Of a stretch of 46,531 nt of DNA, positions 20,181 through 25,956 are shown piece by piece. This stretch comes from Oscillospiraceae bacterium (lineage in GTDB: Bacteria > Bacillota > Clostridia > Oscillospirales > Oscillospiraceae). The notes below the pieces were generated by a model, which saw only the letters and a list, made by a program, of their open reading frames with translations, did not search any database and was not told the origin of the DNA. The translations under genes and the position numbers were made by a program. Each line of letters starts with the position of its first letter. Position 1 is the stretch's first letter. The stretch lies in NCBI GenBank assembly GCA_015068335.1, contig SVKT01000001.1:1-46531 (forward strand), written 5' to 3'.

Positions 20181-20331
20181 ACAAACGCCCAGAGCCGTAA
20201 GGCTTTGGGCGTTTTTGCGTCTGCGCCCCCGGCGTTTGGGTTGATGAAAGCCTAAAACCCGGCGGTGCTGCCCGAAAATGTCACGGAATATTTACGATTA
20301 GATGCTATTGGGCGGAATTATTTATCGGCGT

Positions 20332-20391
20332 GTTACGAGTAAAGAAAAAGAGTGGAAAAATATTGCGGCAGGACATATTTTCTGCTAAATT
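20332..20391 (+). promoter_or_regulatory. S-layer gene 1 promoter with upstream GTTACGAGTA box
   Basis: Box 20332-20341; TTGCGG(20363)-N17-TAAATT; same layout at 23089-23149. Confidence 0.65.
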
Positions 20392-20394
20392 AGA

Positions 20395-20595
20395 TTTGCA
20401 GACTTGGCGTGAAAGCCCGAACCTGATACCGGGACTGGTGTAGGTCGACCGTTCCTGTGCCGGCTTTTCCGGCTCGATCCGGAAGAGGTGGGGCAGGGGC
20501 GCGGAGGCGGTTTTGCCAAACAAGACCGGTTCCGGGCAGGCTAGCCCCGACACGAATCCCGGAGCAGGTAAGGACGGACGCGCTGATCCTGCAAA
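20395..20595 (+). ncRNA. Putative structured 5' leader RNA, copy 1
   Basis: Homologous to 23154-23344 with compensatory changes in three stems; closed by TTTGCAG/CTGCAAA. Confidence 0.7.
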
Positions 20596-20619
20596 TACTT
20601 TTTAGGAGGATCCCCAAGT

Positions 20620-21441
20620 ATGAAGAAGTTCCTTTCTCTGGTTCTGGTTCTGGTCATGGCTCTGTCCGTGGTCACCATCAGCGCCGGCGCTGCAACCTTC
20701 TCCGACAGCGCCACCATCAAGTATCCCGAAGCCGCCGAGCTGCTGCACGGCCTGGAAATCCACAAGGGTTTCGAAGACCAGACCTATCAGCCCCAGAACC
20801 TGATGAGCCGTGGTTTCGCCTGCAAGGTCGTCGTTGAGTGCATGATCGGCGTCGAGAAGGGCCTGAAACTGCCCGCCGGCAAGTCCATCTTCAAGGACGT
20901 CACCGCCGACTATCGCTATGCTCCCTATGTCAACTATCTGGCAGATCAGGGCCTGATCGACGGTTACAGCGATGGCAAGTTCCTGCCCAAGGAAGTCATC
21001 TCTGTTGCTGGTATGCTGAAACTGGCTCTGGGCGCTCTGGGCTACAAGGCTGACTACACTGGCGACAACTGGCAGTGGAAGGTCCGCACTGACGCCAAGG
21101 CCGCCGGCCTGCTGAACGGCATCGACACTTTCGCTGCTGACAGCGCCAACCGTGAAGAGATCGAGTGGTACGCCATCCGCCGTGATGAGGGCGCTCAGGT
21201 TATGATGAACGCTCTGCTGGGCACCGTCGTCAACTATGCCGACGGCAAGGCCACTCCCGTCACCAACGCCAAGACCTCTCACTATGACATCACTGCCGGT
21301 GGTACCGCCGACGCTCTGATGCAGCTGTGCGAGAAGTCTATGCCCGACCTGAAGAAGGACGCTGGCGCTCTGGACTTCCTGGATCGTGAAGGCACTGCCT
21401 GGACCAAGGGCGACGCTACCGTCTGCTTCATCCTGAACTAA
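20620..21441 (+). CDS. Short S-layer homology (SLH) protein, paralog of 23371-25884
   Basis: Signal peptide MKKFLSLVLVLVMALSVVTISAGA; SLH motifs FKDV..GLIDGYSDGKFLP; high-expression codon style. Confidence 0.88.
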   Translation: MKKFLSLVLVLVMALSVVTISAGAATFSDSATIKYPEAAELLHGLEIHKGFEDQTYQPQNLMSRGFACKVVVECMIGVEKGLKLPAGKSIFKDVTADYRYAPYVNYLADQGLIDGYSDGKFLPKEVISVAGMLKLALGALGYKADYTGDNWQWKVRTDAKAAGLLNGIDTFAADSANREEIEWYAIRRDEGAQVMMNALLGTVVNYADGKATPVTNAKTSHYDITAGGTADALMQLCEKSMPDLKKDAGALDFLDREGTAWTKGDATVCFILN

Positions 21442-21455
21442 TCTTCCATCCATAA

Positions 21456-21490
21456 TAAAAGACTCCGGACTTCGGTCCGGAGTCTTTTTT
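21456..21490 (+). terminator. Terminator after S-layer gene 1
   Basis: AAAAGACTCCGGAC-TTCG-GTCCGGAGTCTTTTT. Confidence 0.85.
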
Positions 21491-21700
21491 GCAGCGTGCG
21501 GTATGTTTGCCTGCCGCAGATTGCGCTGCGTGCGGTTTTTGACGCGTGCGTTTGGTGAAGCGTTATTGGACAAAGGCGACAGTTTTTGGATAATGGGGCA
21601 AAAAACGGCGTGCCGCGTTGCGAAAATGGAAAATCTGTGATACAAAGAAAGAGAAGAAACGTCCGCAAGGCTGCGGACGGAGCGAGGAGGTGGAACTGCT

Positions 21701-22978
21701 ATGGGGAAAAAGACCTTTCACCGGCCCGACGGCGGAGCGATGCGCCGCCTGCTGGGGCGGAACGTGGATACCTGTGCGGGCGTGATTTTGCGTCTGGCCT
21801 GGAATATGGGCTTGTCGCTGGATGAGATGCACGGCTTGCGTTGGAACGACATCTCCTTTGAAACGGGCACGCTCCGCCTGCCCGGCCGCAGCGTTCCACT
21901 GGATGAGGACACGGCAGGCTGCCTGAAATTCCGGCAGACGCGGCAATTCCACCGCGTGTCTGAATATGTGGTGGTTTCCGACCGGCGCCGCGCGCATATG
22001 CACCGCGTTTACATATCCAGAACCGCGCAGGCGGCGCTGGACACGGAGGAAGCCCTGAAAGACGTCACGCTGAAAGACCTGCGGGAGGATTTTGTCCTCC
22101 GCCAACTGGCGCTGTACGACAGTGCGTGGGTGGCGCGCATCAGCGGTCTGACGCTGGCCACGCTGAACAGCACCTACCTGCCCTTCGCTGCGCCGGAAGC
22201 CTCCGCGGCGGTGAGAAAGCGGCCGACCCGGGTGGAAACGGCAGAATTGGAGGCGCTGGCCTGCACGGCGGGCGCACCGGCGGGTCTTGCCATCTGGCTG
22301 GCGTGGAAACTGGGTCTGGAACTGGAAGAACTGGCGGCGCTGGAATGGCGGCAGGTGGACTGGGTGGAGAGCGTGATCCGTCTGCCCGGCCGTCAGGCAC
22401 CGATGGACGACACGATGCGGGCGCTTCTGCGTCAGGCGTACGACCGACGCTCTCCCGACGCTCCGCCCCAGATCCTGCTGAGCCGGAACGCCCAAACGCC
22501 CTTTGACGTCAGTTACCTCTCCCGCGTGGTACGGATGGCGCTGATCCGGGGCGGTATGGAGCACGTGAAACTCCGCGACCTGAAACGGGAGGAGCAGCGC
22601 AGCGAGGGCGGACAGGCGATCCTGGAACACGCCGCCCGGGCGGGCCATATCAACCGGAACGAAGCGATGGCGCTGCTGCACGAGGGAAAAACGGCGGTAT
22701 ACCGCCGCCTGCGCCGGCTGACGGAGCAGGGCAAACTGGTGCGCATCGGTGCGGAGTATTATCCCGCGGGCGCCGTTGTGCCGCCGGAGGAGCAGTACGC
22801 TGTGATCCGCGCCTATCTGGAACGGGAGGGCGGCGCCTACCGTCAGGACCTGGCGGCGCTTCTCCGCATTGCGCCGCAGCAGTGCGGCTGGATCCTGCAA
22901 ACGATGGTGCAGGATGGCCGTCTGTGCCGGGAAAAGCAGTGGTACACGCTGCCGGCGCAGGAAACTATATATAGGTAA
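21701..22978 (+). CDS. Tandem degenerate tyrosine-recombinase-fold domains plus two C-terminal wHTH-like domains
   Basis: LAWNMGLSLDEMHGLRWNDI/LKDLRE and LAWKLGLELEELAALEWRQVD/LRDLKR resemble integrase box I/II; INRNEAMALL..VYRRLRRLTEQGKL and YRQDLAALL..ILQTMVQDGRL resemble wHTH; RBS GAGGAGG. Confidence 0.75.
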   Translation: MGKKTFHRPDGGAMRRLLGRNVDTCAGVILRLAWNMGLSLDEMHGLRWNDISFETGTLRLPGRSVPLDEDTAGCLKFRQTRQFHRVSEYVVVSDRRRAHMHRVYISRTAQAALDTEEALKDVTLKDLREDFVLRQLALYDSAWVARISGLTLATLNSTYLPFAAPEASAAVRKRPTRVETAELEALACTAGAPAGLAIWLAWKLGLELEELAALEWRQVDWVESVIRLPGRQAPMDDTMRALLRQAYDRRSPDAPPQILLSRNAQTPFDVSYLSRVVRMALIRGGMEHVKLRDLKREEQRSEGGQAILEHAARAGHINRNEAMALLHEGKTAVYRRLRRLTEQGKLVRIGAEYYPAGAVVPPEEQYAVIRAYLEREGGAYRQDLAALLRIAPQQCGWILQTMVQDGRLCREKQWYTLPAQETIYR

Positions 22979-23088
22979 GGCAAGAGTGTCCGACGGGCAG
23001 GGATGGTGGTCTCTGCCCGTTTTTTGTTACAAGATGTGTGACAAACATTTACACATCAATACAAATGGCAGAAAACACTTTACTCTGC

Positions 23089-23149
23089 GTTACGAGTAGG
23101 TAAAAAAGGGTAAAAACTGCTTGCAAAGGGGATTTTTTTCCGCTACATT
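23089..23149 (+). promoter_or_regulatory. S-layer gene 2 promoter with upstream GTTACGAGTA box
   Basis: Box 23089-23098; TTGCAA(23121)-N17-TACATT. Confidence 0.7.
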
Positions 23150-23153
23150 AACC

Positions 23154-23344
23154 TTGCAAACCGAGGCGTGGAATCCGGAGCCTGAATCCGTGACTGGTGT
23201 AGGCCAAACGTTCCCGGACCGGCCGTCCCGACTCAACCCGGAAAGGGTGGTACGGGAGCGAGAAATGGTTTTACTGTTTCTGGGCAGGCTAGCCCCGACA
23301 CGAATCCCGGAAACGGGTGAGGGAAGAAATGCATCTGTTTGCAA
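23154..23344 (+). ncRNA. Putative structured 5' leader RNA, copy 2
   Basis: Homologous to 20395-20595; identical 30-mer GGGCAGGCTAGCCCCGACACGAATCCCGGA; closed by TTGCAAAC/GTTTGCAA. Confidence 0.7.
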
Positions 23345-23370
23345 ATATTTTATTAGGAGGACACCTACCT

Positions 23371-25884
23371 ATGAAGAAGTTCCTTTCTCTGGTTCTGGCT
23401 CTGGTTATGGCCATGTCTCTGGTCACCATCAGCGCTGGTGCCGCGGATTTCAAGGACGAAGCTTCCATCGATCCCATCTATGCTGAAGCTGTCGACGTGA
23501 TTTCCGCCCTGGGCATCGTGAGCGGCAACAACGGCTCTTACCTGCCTCAGGACAACCTGACCCGCGGCGCTGCCGCCAAGATCCTGGCCGGCGTCAAGCT
23601 GGGCGCCGACCTGGCCGCCAAGCTGCCCAAGACCTCTGCCTTCTCTGACGTTGCTGCTGGCAGCACCTTCGCTGGCTACATCAGCTACCTGAAGGACGAG
23701 GGCATCGTCGGCGGTTACGGCGACGGCACCTTCGGCCCCTCCAACAAGCTGACCGGCGACGCCTTCCTGAAGCAGGTTCTGGGCGTCCTGGGCTACAAGG
23801 CTGACGTTGAGGGCTACAATGTTACCGGTTGGCAGGTCTCCGTCGCTATCGACGCCCTGAACGCTGGTCTGCTGGAAGGTATGGAGGAGAATTTCAACTC
23901 CGCCAACCTGATCACCCGTGAGCAGGCTGCTCAGATCATCCTGAACGCCCTGCAGGCTGATATGGTCTACTATCCCACTCAGTCCAGCATCCAGATCGGT
24001 GACATCACCATCAACAACAGTTCCGAGGCTAAGAAGGTTGAGAACGCTGCTACCGCCGACTATGACAAGACTGTCATCAGCACCGACGGCAATGGCGATC
24101 CCGTCTATCGCACCAACACTGTTCAGCAGCTGTGCGAGAAGGCCTTCCCCACCCTGAAGAAGGTCGACAACGTGACCGACGATATGGCTCGTCCCGCTAC
24201 CCAGTGGAACTACAAGGGCCAGTCCCTGGTTCTGGCTGTCGATAACGCCGAGATGACCTATGTTGCTTCTCCCAAGTACAAGGACGTCTATGCTGTCCTG
24301 GGCCTGACCGACAAGGAAGTGCCCTGGGTTGCTTATGAGGACGGCGTTGTTTATTCTAACGCCAACTGGAACAACGGCTATGGCTACAACGGCAAGTTGA
24401 CCGTTGATGGCACCTCCAACATGGTCAACGCCAACCGTCGCTGCGCTTACGAGATCTACTATGATTCCACCAAGGCCACTCCCGTGACCGCCATTATGGT
24501 GAACGAGTATGTCGGTAAGGTTTCTGCCACCTCCGGTTCCGGCGATGCCAGAAAGATCACCATCGTTCCTATGGACAATGCTACCGAGAGCTTCCCCGAC
24601 GGCGTGTCCTCTGTTGAGTTCACCACCACCGAGTACGCTGTGGACGACGTCGTTGTCTTCACCTACTCCTATGCTACCTCCAAGGTTCAGACCGTGAAGA
24701 TCGCCGAGTACCTGACCGGTGAGATCACCCGCGTTGAGACTCTGAGCGGCCGTGCCGACATCTTCGTTGACGATGTCAAGGTCAGCTACGCTTGGGGTAC
24801 TGCCGACGGCAACTGCGACCTGTTCAACAAGAGCGGCCTGTCCATCGGCGACACCGTGAACGTCTATCTGGACAGCAACAGCTACTACCTGTACGTTGAA
24901 GAGGTCGAGGCCGTTGCTTCCGACAAGTTCGCTTACGTCCTGGATGCTGCCGATGAGGCTGCTCCTCTGTTCGGCACTGCTAAGCACTTCGCTCAGCTGC
25001 TGATGACCGACGGCACCATCGAGACCGTTGAGACCGACGAACTGTACACCGCTGAGAAGTATGACTTCGTGACCTACTCCATCGATGAGGACGGTCTGTA
25101 TGTCCTGGACGACGCTGACAACAACAACGTTAACGACACTGTCTCCGTTGACATCAACGGCACGATCTATGCCACCATCGGTGGTTCCGTGACCCTGAGC
25201 AGCAGCACCATCTTCGTTGTGAAGACCGAGGTTGACGGCAAGGCCGTGTACACCTCCTATCTGGGCCACAAGAACGTTCCCAAGATGGACGGCACCACCT
25301 ATGCTGACGCTGTCAAGGCCAAGAGCACTGACACCGCTGTCGCTTATGTCTTCGTCGACGCTACCGCCAACGGCTTCAACCTGAGCACCACCGCTGACAA
25401 GGTTGACTACCTGTATATCAACACCACCGACTCCGGCCGCGAGTATGCCGATGCCAACAACACCTGGTATCAGTACAACGCTGTCGTGAACGGCGAGGTT
25501 GAGACCATTATGGTCGACGCTTCCTGCAAGGCCGCTCTGAGCGCTCGCGCCAAGCTCATCTTCTCCGCCTACAAGGTCAACGACGAGGGCTTCTACTTCG
25601 TCGAGGCTGGCGATGTCGTGACTCCCACCGAGGACTACATCAACGTCGCTAACGGCCAGGGTCTGAATTACGTTGACGGCCTGCTGCTGGCTGGCATCAA
25701 CAAGCCCGAGACCACCGCTGCCTACGAAATGGACGAGGATGTTGTCATCATCTACAACGACAGCAACGCTGTCTACCTGTGGACTGAGGCCAACCTGAAG
25801 AAGGATACCAACGATTACAGCTGGCTGTACGATATCGACGGCGACGCCGACATCGACTTCGTGGTTATCCAGAAGATGGCCTAA
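23371..25884 (+). CDS. Major S-layer protein (N-terminal SLH repeats)
   Basis: Start reassigned to MKKFLSLVLALVMAMSLVTISAGA with RBS AGGAGG; SLH motifs LTRGAAAKI and FSDV..GIVGGYGDGTFGP; acidic Thr/Val/Asp-rich body; strong codon bias. Confidence 0.92.
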   Translation: MKKFLSLVLALVMAMSLVTISAGAADFKDEASIDPIYAEAVDVISALGIVSGNNGSYLPQDNLTRGAAAKILAGVKLGADLAAKLPKTSAFSDVAAGSTFAGYISYLKDEGIVGGYGDGTFGPSNKLTGDAFLKQVLGVLGYKADVEGYNVTGWQVSVAIDALNAGLLEGMEENFNSANLITREQAAQIILNALQADMVYYPTQSSIQIGDITINNSSEAKKVENAATADYDKTVISTDGNGDPVYRTNTVQQLCEKAFPTLKKVDNVTDDMARPATQWNYKGQSLVLAVDNAEMTYVASPKYKDVYAVLGLTDKEVPWVAYEDGVVYSNANWNNGYGYNGKLTVDGTSNMVNANRRCAYEIYYDSTKATPVTAIMVNEYVGKVSATSGSGDARKITIVPMDNATESFPDGVSSVEFTTTEYAVDDVVVFTYSYATSKVQTVKIAEYLTGEITRVETLSGRADIFVDDVKVSYAWGTADGNCDLFNKSGLSIGDTVNVYLDSNSYYLYVEEVEAVASDKFAYVLDAADEAAPLFGTAKHFAQLLMTDGTIETVETDELYTAEKYDFVTYSIDEDGLYVLDDADNNNVNDTVSVDINGTIYATIGGSVTLSSSTIFVVKTEVDGKAVYTSYLGHKNVPKMDGTTYADAVKAKSTDTAVAYVFVDATANGFNLSTTADKVDYLYINTTDSGREYADANNTWYQYNAVVNGEVETIMVDASCKAALSARAKLIFSAYKVNDEGFYFVEAGDVVTPTEDYINVANGQGLNYVDGLLLAGINKPETTAAYEMDEDVVIIYNDSNAVYLWTEANLKKDTNDYSWLYDIDGDADIDFVVIQKMA

Positions 25885-25922: not shown

Positions 25923-25956
25923 AAAAAAGGCCCCGGGCTTTCGCCCGGGGCCTTTT
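25923..25956 (+). terminator. Terminator after S-layer gene 2
   Basis: AAAAGGCCCCGGGC-TTTC-GCCCGGGGCCTTTT. Confidence 0.85.

What the first reader, a model, noticed from the sequence alone, without database searches (positions are those of the whole stretch)
20395..23344. Unrecognised ~200-nt structured leader RNA, two copies with compensatory changes
Seen: both leaders begin at the predicted TSS and end just before the RBS. Covarying stems: TTGCAG/CTGCAA vs TTGCAA/TTGCAA (closing stem); ACCT/AGGT (20421/20442) vs GCCT/AGGC (23180/23201); CGTTCCTG/CAGGGGCG (20450/20494) vs CGTTCCCG/CGGGAGCG (23209/23253). A variable-length hairpin precedes the invariant GGGC-AGGCTA-GCCC hairpin and CGACACGAATCCCGGA; GACTGGTGTAGG is also invariant. 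In copy 1, CCGGGA could pair with TCCCGG as a pseudoknot. I cannot match it to a riboswitch I know. Established: some S-layer mRNAs have stabilising 5' UTRs. Inference: the invariant unpaired blocks suggest ligand or protein binding beyond stability.
Basis: partly seen in the sequence, partly recalled or inferred. Interest (0 to 1): 0.82.

Follow-up and report, generated by a model that had tools for sequence, protein, structure and literature searches.

The report
Self-pairing loop in S-layer mRNA leaders
Surface-layer protein genes of a family of gut bacteria are preceded by a conserved, predicted RNA stem whose loop keeps a rare self-complementary word, changed only in ways that keep it self-complementary, so these messenger RNAs likely pair with one another, a behaviour known from retroviral genomes and fly mRNAs.

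Summary
Both copies are real. They are predicted 5' leaders of S-layer-homology (SLH) genes, with no Rfam match, and are long forms of an Oscillospiraceae family (short form in 105 of 164 same-genus genomes; also 11 other genera). The core stem covaries. The most constant feature is a loop palindrome, GGCUAGCC. Its centre was TA or AT in 143 of 143 genus matches and AT in 19 of 19 true metagenome hits when TA was excluded. It switched at least five times with no single-change intermediate seen. It persists on unrelated scaffolds, agrees between copies in all 31 multi-copy genomes, and occurs only twice in the window's assembly. No riboswitch expression platform was found. Best reading: a 5'-end-protecting leader with a kissing-loop signal through which S-layer mRNAs pair (about 55%; inferred, no experiment). 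A shared RNA-binding protein is the main rival. The published 'SLH' riboswitch candidate is probably a different RNA, but its consensus could not be seen.

The parts
20363..20391 (+). Predicted sigma-70-type promoter 1 (-35 TTGCGG 20363-20368; extended -10 TG-C-TAAATT 20383-20391)
   Evidence: Read from sequence; not listed by the consensus scan; same spacing to the leader in relatives
20398..20592 (+). Leader RNA copy 1, long type-1 form; first nucleotide predicted paired (closing stem GCAG/CTGC)
   Evidence: RNA-library contigs of a relative begin at 20411 and 20430 and run into the ORF
20428..20444 (+). Copy 1 core, 5' strand (outer stem, invariant G.G mismatch, 4-bp stem, purine mismatch, GG)
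   Evidence: alignment A2 columns 11-27
20445..20538 (+). Copy 1 variable insert (two hairpins); 2-6 nt in short forms, up to about 150 nt in long forms
20539..20546 (+). Palindrome GGCTAGCC, predicted kissing sequence
20547..20563 (+). Copy 1 core, 3' strand
   Evidence: A2 columns 138-154
20604..20609 (+). Shine-Dalgarno AGGAGG, outside the leader fold
20620..21441 (+). Short SLH-domain protein, 273 aa (same length in close relative L093), followed by a terminator-like hairpin at 21467-21485
21701..22978 (+). Tyrosine-recombinase-fold protein, 425 aa, usual upstream neighbour of type-1 leaders; terminator-like hairpin 22992-23021
23121..23149 (+). Predicted promoter 2 (-35 TTGCAA; -10 TACATT 23144-23149)
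   Evidence: read from sequence
23156..23342 (+). Leader RNA copy 2, long type-1 form (core 5' strand 23187-23203, insert 23204-23286, core 3' strand 23295-23311)
23287..23294 (+). Palindrome GGCTAGCC of copy 2
23355..23360 (+). Shine-Dalgarno AGGAGG of copy 2
23371..25884 (+). Full-length SLH (probable S-layer) protein, 837 aa; terminator-like hairpin 25925-25956

Best explanation
This is a conserved structured sequence between the predicted promoter and the ribosome-binding site of SLH (probable S-layer) genes, predicted to fold as a long stem that would shield the mRNA's first nucleotide and whose loop palindrome (GCUAGC or GCAUGC) likely lets two S-layer mRNAs pair by a kissing-loop contact. 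Shown by sequence comparison: position, covarying stem, palindrome conservation and double-change switching, agreement between paralogs in one genome, rarity of the word. Inferred: (1) the transcript starts at the paired G, so the 5' end is hidden from 5'-end-dependent decay and the mRNA is long-lived. (2) The 6-8-nt palindrome, placed at the 3' side of a 9-11-nt loop or of a junction strand, pairs with the same word on a second transcript, from the same gene or from a paralog. (3) Because the word is nearly absent elsewhere in the genome, the pairing would mark S-layer mRNA as self. The likely outcome is concentration-dependent dimers or clusters of S-layer mRNAs that are stabilised or translated together at export sites (about 0.3 overall). 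Dimer-triggered feedback on total S-layer mRNA is the second option.
For: Centre dinucleotide: 126 TA, 17 AT and 0 of the other 14 in 143 genus matches. With TA excluded and 12 centres allowed, all 19 true metagenome hits were AT; the 3 others were chance hits. Outside the genus, 19 type-2 consensus hits were 15 TA and 4 AT. All 28 inspected hits with other centres had no SLH start after them, and most lay in long open frames. A second palindrome-keeping double change, GACATGTC, was found. The rpoB tree needs 3 TA/AT changes in the genus (at least 2 forced), and genera g130 and g126 each hold both states. An intramolecular hairpin gains nothing from UA or AU (same computed energy for 7 loops), whereas the intermolecular duplex falls from -14.8/-14.6 to -7.9 to -9.7 kcal/mol with one change. 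CTAG is depleted about tenfold in nearly all these genomes yet kept here. The word survives on unrelated scaffolds: 15 of 20 parsed leaders from genomes that had no match in the two genus pattern searches, 5 of 5 genes in G418, 4 of 4 in G730, and 3 of 3 GGCATGCC in G413. It is absent from 132 of 132 coding controls. All 31 multi-copy genomes are concordant. Loop geometry: 2 or fewer unpaired nt on the 3' side in 122 of 132 and 3-6 nt on the 5' side in 100 of 132.
Against: No experiment was done and dimerisation was not observed. In the window's long forms the minimum-energy fold buries part of the palindrome, and opening it costs 4.7 and 5.3 kcal/mol. Some paralogs lack it: L355, L342, L374, the window genome's C137 paralog, and four cassettes with no promoter seen, so it is not essential for every SLH gene. 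The more stable palindromes with CG or GC centres (-18.3, -17.5) were never seen, which simple dimerisation does not predict; their abundance in the genome is an after-the-fact explanation. Agreement between paralogs is equally expected from a shared protein, and rests on few independent events (mainly G413). The first three predicted nucleotides are paired in only 63 of 98 leaders. The outer palindrome pair is broken in a minority (AGCTAGCC, TGCTAGCC, GGCTAGCA).
Confidence: 0.55

Rival explanations
1. The stem stabilises the mRNA and the loop is read, as a monomer, by a sequence-specific RNA-binding protein that co-regulates all S-layer paralogs; TA/AT states follow changes in that protein.
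For: Explains the same word on unrelated scaffolds and the agreement within genomes; invariant G.G mismatch (108 of 109) could be a protein contact.
Against: Gives no reason why every observed change keeps self-complementarity, repeatedly and without single-change forms. No candidate protein was identified; the neighbouring recombinase-fold gene lies upstream of only 11 of 70 type-2 leaders.
Confidence: 0.2
2. A purely structural stabiliser of a very abundant mRNA, capped by a compact G-C(UA/AU)G-C mini-hairpin, like Lactobacillus slpA leaders.
For: Leader starts at the predicted +1 and ends before the SD; 2-3 bp GGC/GCC is 98% 'paired'; GACATGTC also fits an intramolecular pair; S-layer mRNAs with stabilising 5' UTRs are known (PMC10221546, passage).
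Against: A CNNG cap should accept CUUG or CUCG; none. A different SLH-gene leader in diderm Bacillota does vary freely there (CATG, CTTG, CTAG, CACG). Simple-hairpin forms would need a 3-nt one-sided bulge.
Confidence: 0.12
3. A DNA-level site: an 8-bp palindrome bound by a dimeric protein or methyltransferase, or used in S-layer gene switching.
For: Perfect palindrome, very rare in these genomes; a recombinase-fold gene adjoins 43 of 47 type-1 leaders; inverted S-layer cassettes exist in relatives.
Against: Distance from the predicted start varies from about +45 to +200 but the word stays in a predicted loop. U.G to U-A changes fit the + strand as RNA. TA/AT state does not track genome-wide CATG or CTAG avoidance. 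The inverted cassettes share a different, SD-proximal segment.
Confidence: 0.07
4. A small-molecule riboswitch (for example a member of the published SLH candidate) sensing a cell-wall signal.
For: 5' of SLH genes, like the SLH candidate (PMC6429828 passage); conserved internal loops in types 1 and 2.
Against: No terminator or SD-sequestering alternative; internal loops are dispensable in other scaffolds; no model hit at 45 SLH loci of 10 diderm Bacillota genomes.
Confidence: 0.06

Closest known systems
SLH riboswitch candidate (Stav et al. 2019, PMC6429828; passages and one supplement row seen, Fig. 3e not visible)
   Same: Structured motif upstream of SLH-domain genes, including Clostridia; not returned by the Rfam scan here.
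   Different: Reported from Synergistaceae, Negativicutes and Clostridia. This RNA was found only in Oscillospiraceae: 0 of 279 genomes of other families of the order (type-2 pattern), no real hit in 34 diderm Bacillota. Selenomonad-like ompM leaders carry a different motif. Identity cannot be excluded without the figure or alignment.
HIV-1 DIS and oskar 3' UTR palindromic kissing loops (PMC7357161 passages; PMC4066764 listing and abstract start; PMC13079385 abstract and opening text; DIS loop size and subtype variants recalled)
   Same: Six-nucleotide palindrome exposed in a hairpin loop, with natural variants that stay palindromic; proposed self-recognition between identical RNAs.
   Different: Bacterial 5' UTR of a cell-envelope gene family; palindrome sits on the 3' side of the loop after a variable linker that can hold a 150-nt domain; shared by paralogs; dimerisation not tested.
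Stabilising 5' UTR of Lactobacillus slpA mRNA (PMC10221546, one passage)
   Same: Structured leader of an S-layer mRNA, stem from the 5' end, exposed ribosome-binding site.
   Different: No sequence comparison made; that passage describes no conserved palindromic loop.
Oligomeric bacterial non-coding RNAs OLE, ROOL, GOLLD, ARRPOF (PMC12990946 passages and Table 1)
   Same: Natural bacterial RNAs that self-associate by kissing loops or palindromic pairing.
   Different: Those are stand-alone RNAs of 255-833 nt; this is a 100-270-nt mRNA leader with no Rfam match to them.
HMP2 candidates near SLH genes in Oscillibacter (Fremin and Bhatt 2021, PMC8040213; table rows seen, alignments and figures unreadable)
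   Same: HMP2_1277, _13912, _7203, _11784 occur within 5 kb of SLH genes in Oscillospiraceae and could be fragments of this leader.
   Different: HMP2_4895 is flagged as a terminator within 25 bp of the gene, unlike this core. No function or palindrome is given for any in the rows seen.

Membership tests
Any Rfam 15 family | Covariance-model score at gathering threshold | tested here: not met
   only tRNAs; other matches E 4.5-5.5 and outside the leaders
SLH riboswitch candidate (Stav 2019) | Upstream of SLH-domain genes | tested here: met
   47 of 51 inspected matches precede an MKKFLS-type ORF
SLH riboswitch candidate (Stav 2019) | Present in Negativicutes and Synergistaceae | tested here: inconclusive
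   No real hit in 34 diderm Bacillota genomes (134 candidates scored each) or 45 SLH loci; Synergistota could not be searched
SLH riboswitch candidate (Stav 2019) | Consensus sequence and structure (Fig. 3e; seed NC_016148.1/613490-613841) | not testable with these tools
Riboswitch (general) | Expression platform (terminator or SD sequestration) alternative to the aptamer | tested here: not met
Riboswitch (general) | Ligand-dependent structural change | not testable with these tools
   needs in-line probing
Palindromic kissing-loop dimerisation signal (DIS/oskar type) | Self-complementary 6-mer in a predicted loop | tested here: met
   partly buried in the window's long forms
Palindromic kissing-loop dimerisation signal (DIS/oskar type) | Natural variation keeps self-complementarity across the centre | tested here: met
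Palindromic kissing-loop dimerisation signal (DIS/oskar type) | No cis or dedicated trans partner explains the word | tested here: inconclusive
   No covarying cis copy; tRNA-Asp and 23S rRNA do not covary; 25 of 26 GCTAGC sites of complete genome G732 inspected show no evident sRNA loop, not excluded
Palindromic kissing-loop dimerisation signal (DIS/oskar type) | Dimer formation with compensatory rescue | not testable with these tools
   needs native gel or in-cell test
Stabilising S-layer 5' UTR | Stem starting at the transcript's 5' end, SD exposed | tested here: inconclusive
   predicted +1 paired in 63 of 98; start site not measured (contigs only)

The most novel reading that the evidence does not exclude
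Oscillospiraceae mark their S-layer mRNAs with a genome-unique palindromic kissing loop, so that transcripts of all expressed S-layer paralogs pair into dimers or clusters: a retrovirus-like mRNA self-recognition code in bacteria, used to co-localise or count the cell's most abundant envelope mRNA.
Probability: 0.4. Interest if true: 0.92.

Novelty: new variant of a known kind. Interest (0 to 1): 0.76.

Why it matters
Functional RNA dimers are rare. The two reviews read here (PMC7357161, PMC12990946, passages) list viral genomes, fly mRNAs, ribozymes, riboswitches and large non-coding RNAs, and no bacterial mRNA dimerisation signal appeared in those passages or in the listings of searches. A 60-nt module with natural palindrome variants (UA, AU, GACAUGUC) gives ready-made compensatory alleles. 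It makes directly testable whether bacterial mRNAs recognise their own kind by palindromes, as proposed in silico for fly mRNAs (PMC13079385). It also defines an uncatalogued leader family in abundant gut commensals (Oscillibacter, Dysosmobacter).

Tried and rejected
Rfam at two thresholds: nothing. Long-form exact pattern in 300 family genomes: 0; too strict. Earlier findings: none. hits in other phyla lack the 5' strand and an SLH gene, so chance. Type-2 pattern in 300 order-level genomes: 0. The covariance-model genome search scores only 30 of 200-900 candidates, so its 12 of 149 is a lower bound. First rpoB tree (62) was invalid because antisense frames were picked, redone; 6 of the 30 chosen genomes were left out for lack of a full rpoB match. 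One search printed nothing (regex error), redone. Several test pairs were off by one and are not used. The downstream ATGCCGG hairpin as cis partner does not covary with TA/AT (50, 68). tRNA-Asp GCTAGCC and 23S GGGCTAGC as trans partners stay TA-type or change otherwise in AT genomes. Restriction avoidance as the cause of TA/AT: CATG avoidance was seen only in the window's genome. G827 model hits: one in a coding frame, one plain hairpin. Family search at 3 mismatches is noisy (controls similar); only inspected or consensus-like hits were counted. PDB sequence search of the recombinase-fold protein: nothing. RNA contigs give no cover over 20200-20346 and 22993-23139, but one study of contigs cannot place a start site. 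Literature searches found no description of this motif. PMC8632094 has no SLH or S-layer mention. Alignment and figure supplements of PMC8040213 and Fig. 3e of PMC6429828 could not be seen and may bear on novelty. R-scape was not available.
Full report
Observation. The two elements lie at 20395-20595 and 23154-23345, each between a sigma-70-like promoter and the Shine-Dalgarno of an SLH-domain gene (273 aa and 837 aa), with a tyrosine-recombinase-fold ORF between them. They align well and fold as long multi-helix stems with z -6.1 and -4.1. Rfam has no match. They are the only copies found in the assembly. A third SLH paralog on contig C137 has a different leader. The ACCT/AGGT stem, the pseudoknot and the invariant GGGC hairpin do not.

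The family. Same-genus genomes carry shorter versions. Named records with the motif and an SLH gene are Oscillibacter, Dysosmobacter, Neopoerus, other Oscillospiraceae and uncultured Clostridia. Members begin about 7 nt after a -10 box and end before or near the SD. Two main types share one core: outer stem, G.G mismatch (108 of 109), 4-bp stem, purine mismatch, 1-2 pairs, then a loop of a variable linker plus GGCTAGCC. The linker is 2-6 nt in short forms and a branched domain of up to about 150 nt in long forms such as the window's. On 33 sequences, 13 of 20 named pairs change on both sides (83 cells; 0 of 500 shuffles as high; 3-7 pairs in slid controls). The structure was derived from these sequences and R-scape was not run. 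The short form is in 105 of 164 genus genomes and in 17 genomes of 11 other genera among 300 family genomes. It was not found in 279 genomes of other families. 47 of 51 inspected matches precede an MKKFLS-type ORF; the rest are contig ends or parser misses. RNA-library contigs of a relative start inside the leader and continue into the ORF, with one compensatory change (20509 G>A with 20527 C>T). This is one study and contigs only.

The palindrome. GGCTAGCC is its own reverse complement. With the two central bases left free, 143 genus matches gave 126 TA, 17 AT and nothing else (backwards control 3 hits). One AT member is GACATGTC, again palindromic. A metagenome scan that excluded TA and allowed 12 other centres gave 22 hits: 19 members, all AT, and 3 chance hits. 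Outside the genus the consensus-like hits were 15 TA and 4 AT. The 28 inspected hits with other centres had no SLH start. An rpoB tree of 24 genomes needs 3 changes, and two more genera hold both states, so the double change happened at least five times. Nearest-neighbour energies give no advantage to these loops inside one molecule but a 5-7 kcal/mol advantage between two molecules. CTAG is about tenfold depleted in nearly all these genomes. GGCTAGCC occurs only at the two leaders in the window's 1.43-Mb assembly and 0-15 times in five near-complete genomes.

The word outlives the scaffold. In 28 genomes chosen for having no match in the two genus pattern searches, a protein search gave 29 loci. 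A start was parsed in 20, and 15 of these have GCTAGC in the leader, on several unrelated hairpins, some with a plain 9-nt loop. The five without it are two cassettes with no promoter seen, one leader with only TGCA, and two genes of another family. G418 has it in 5 of 5 genes and G730 in 4 of 4; G413 has GGCATGCC in 3 of 3, across both types. All 31 multi-copy genomes are uniform (26 TA, 5 AT). Over all 159 distinct leaders in hand (a motif-biased set; a few hits lie in promoters), 151 have the hexamer, against 0 of 132 coding controls for GCTAGC. Losses exist: L355, L342, L374 and C137.

Mechanism. The SD lies outside the fold and does not pair with the core, and terminators are rare, so there is no evident switch. 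Cis partners, tRNA-Asp, 23S rRNA and restriction avoidance were tested and do not track TA/AT. No clear small-RNA partner stood out among 25 of 26 GCTAGC sites of one complete genome. Self-complementarity through the centre of a loop cannot be satisfied within one strand, so the simplest partner is a second transcript. I therefore read the leader as a 5'-end-protecting stem topped by a kissing-loop signal (0.55). The agreement between divergent paralogs suggests cross-pairing among S-layer mRNAs, but a shared protein predicts the same (0.2). What pairing achieves is inference: joint stabilisation or clustering for export, or feedback on total S-layer mRNA. Against this reading: no experiment, a 5 kcal/mol predicted cost to open the word in the window's copies, absence of the stronger CG and GC palindromes, and the losses above.

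Known systems. It works like the HIV-1 DIS and oskar palindromic loops (PMC7357161) and sits where the stabilising slpA leader sits (PMC10221546). The SLH riboswitch candidate (PMC6429828) is the nearest catalogued motif by gene context. My model finds nothing at 45 SLH loci of diderm Bacillota, whose leaders carry another motif with a freely varying CNNG loop. It is probably distinct, but the figure and seed were not available. Some HMP2 candidates (PMC8040213) may overlap; their alignments were unreadable.

Verdict. A real, uncatalogued structured leader family with an unusual and well-replicated palindrome signature; function inferred. New variant of a known kind; interest 0.76.

Noticed in passing
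window 21701-22978: 425-aa protein with two tyrosine-recombinase-like halves in which I see no H-x-x-R motif (motif recalled), plus helix-turn-helix-like C-terminus. Homologs lie directly upstream of 43 of 47 type-1 and 11 of 70 type-2 leaders and of the C137 paralog. Possibly a catalytically dead regulator of S-layer genes.
   Followed up: partly
L380, L381, L334, L364, L419: S-layer cassettes with no promoter seen, preceded by GCTACCA inverted repeats and sharing an SD-proximal segment with an expressed copy; in G732 and G402 the pair is inverted. Suggests S-layer switching by inversion.
   Followed up: no
whole assembly G000: Strong avoidance of CATG (O/E 0.05), CTAG (0.09) and AGCT (0.11); CATG avoidance was not seen in loci of 38 relatives. 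Suggests lineage-specific restriction-modification.
   Followed up: partly
upstream of -35 boxes, e.g. window 23020-23037 and 20332-20348: TGTWAH-N5-TGTWAH-like repeat (WalR-type box, recalled) within 70 nt of the -35 in 43 of 94 leaders against 2 of 104 coding controls.
   Followed up: partly
L270, L272, L274, L278, L279, L283, L284, L286, L289: A different conserved leader motif (GAGGAAAC-W-TGGACACTC) upstream of ompM-like SLH genes in selenomonad-like genomes; may be the published SLH candidate.
   Followed up: no
L005/L030, L011/L032, L050/L078: Many assemblies break inside the leader or signal-peptide region, with near-identical leaders behind two different promoters, suggesting recent duplication or gene conversion between S-layer paralogs.
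   Followed up: no
window 20620-21441; L321: Short (267-273 aa) SLH proteins recur as paralogs with their own palindromic leader.
   Followed up: no
window 20629-20637 and 23380-23388: Codons 4-6 (TTC CTT TCT in 68 of 122 members) can pair with the Shine-Dalgarno; predicted probability above 0.5 in 28 of 94.
   Followed up: partly
L157-L164: Eight IMG/VR contigs carry the type-2 leader; an SLH-type start was parsed in five. Probably host DNA flanking prophages.
   Followed up: no
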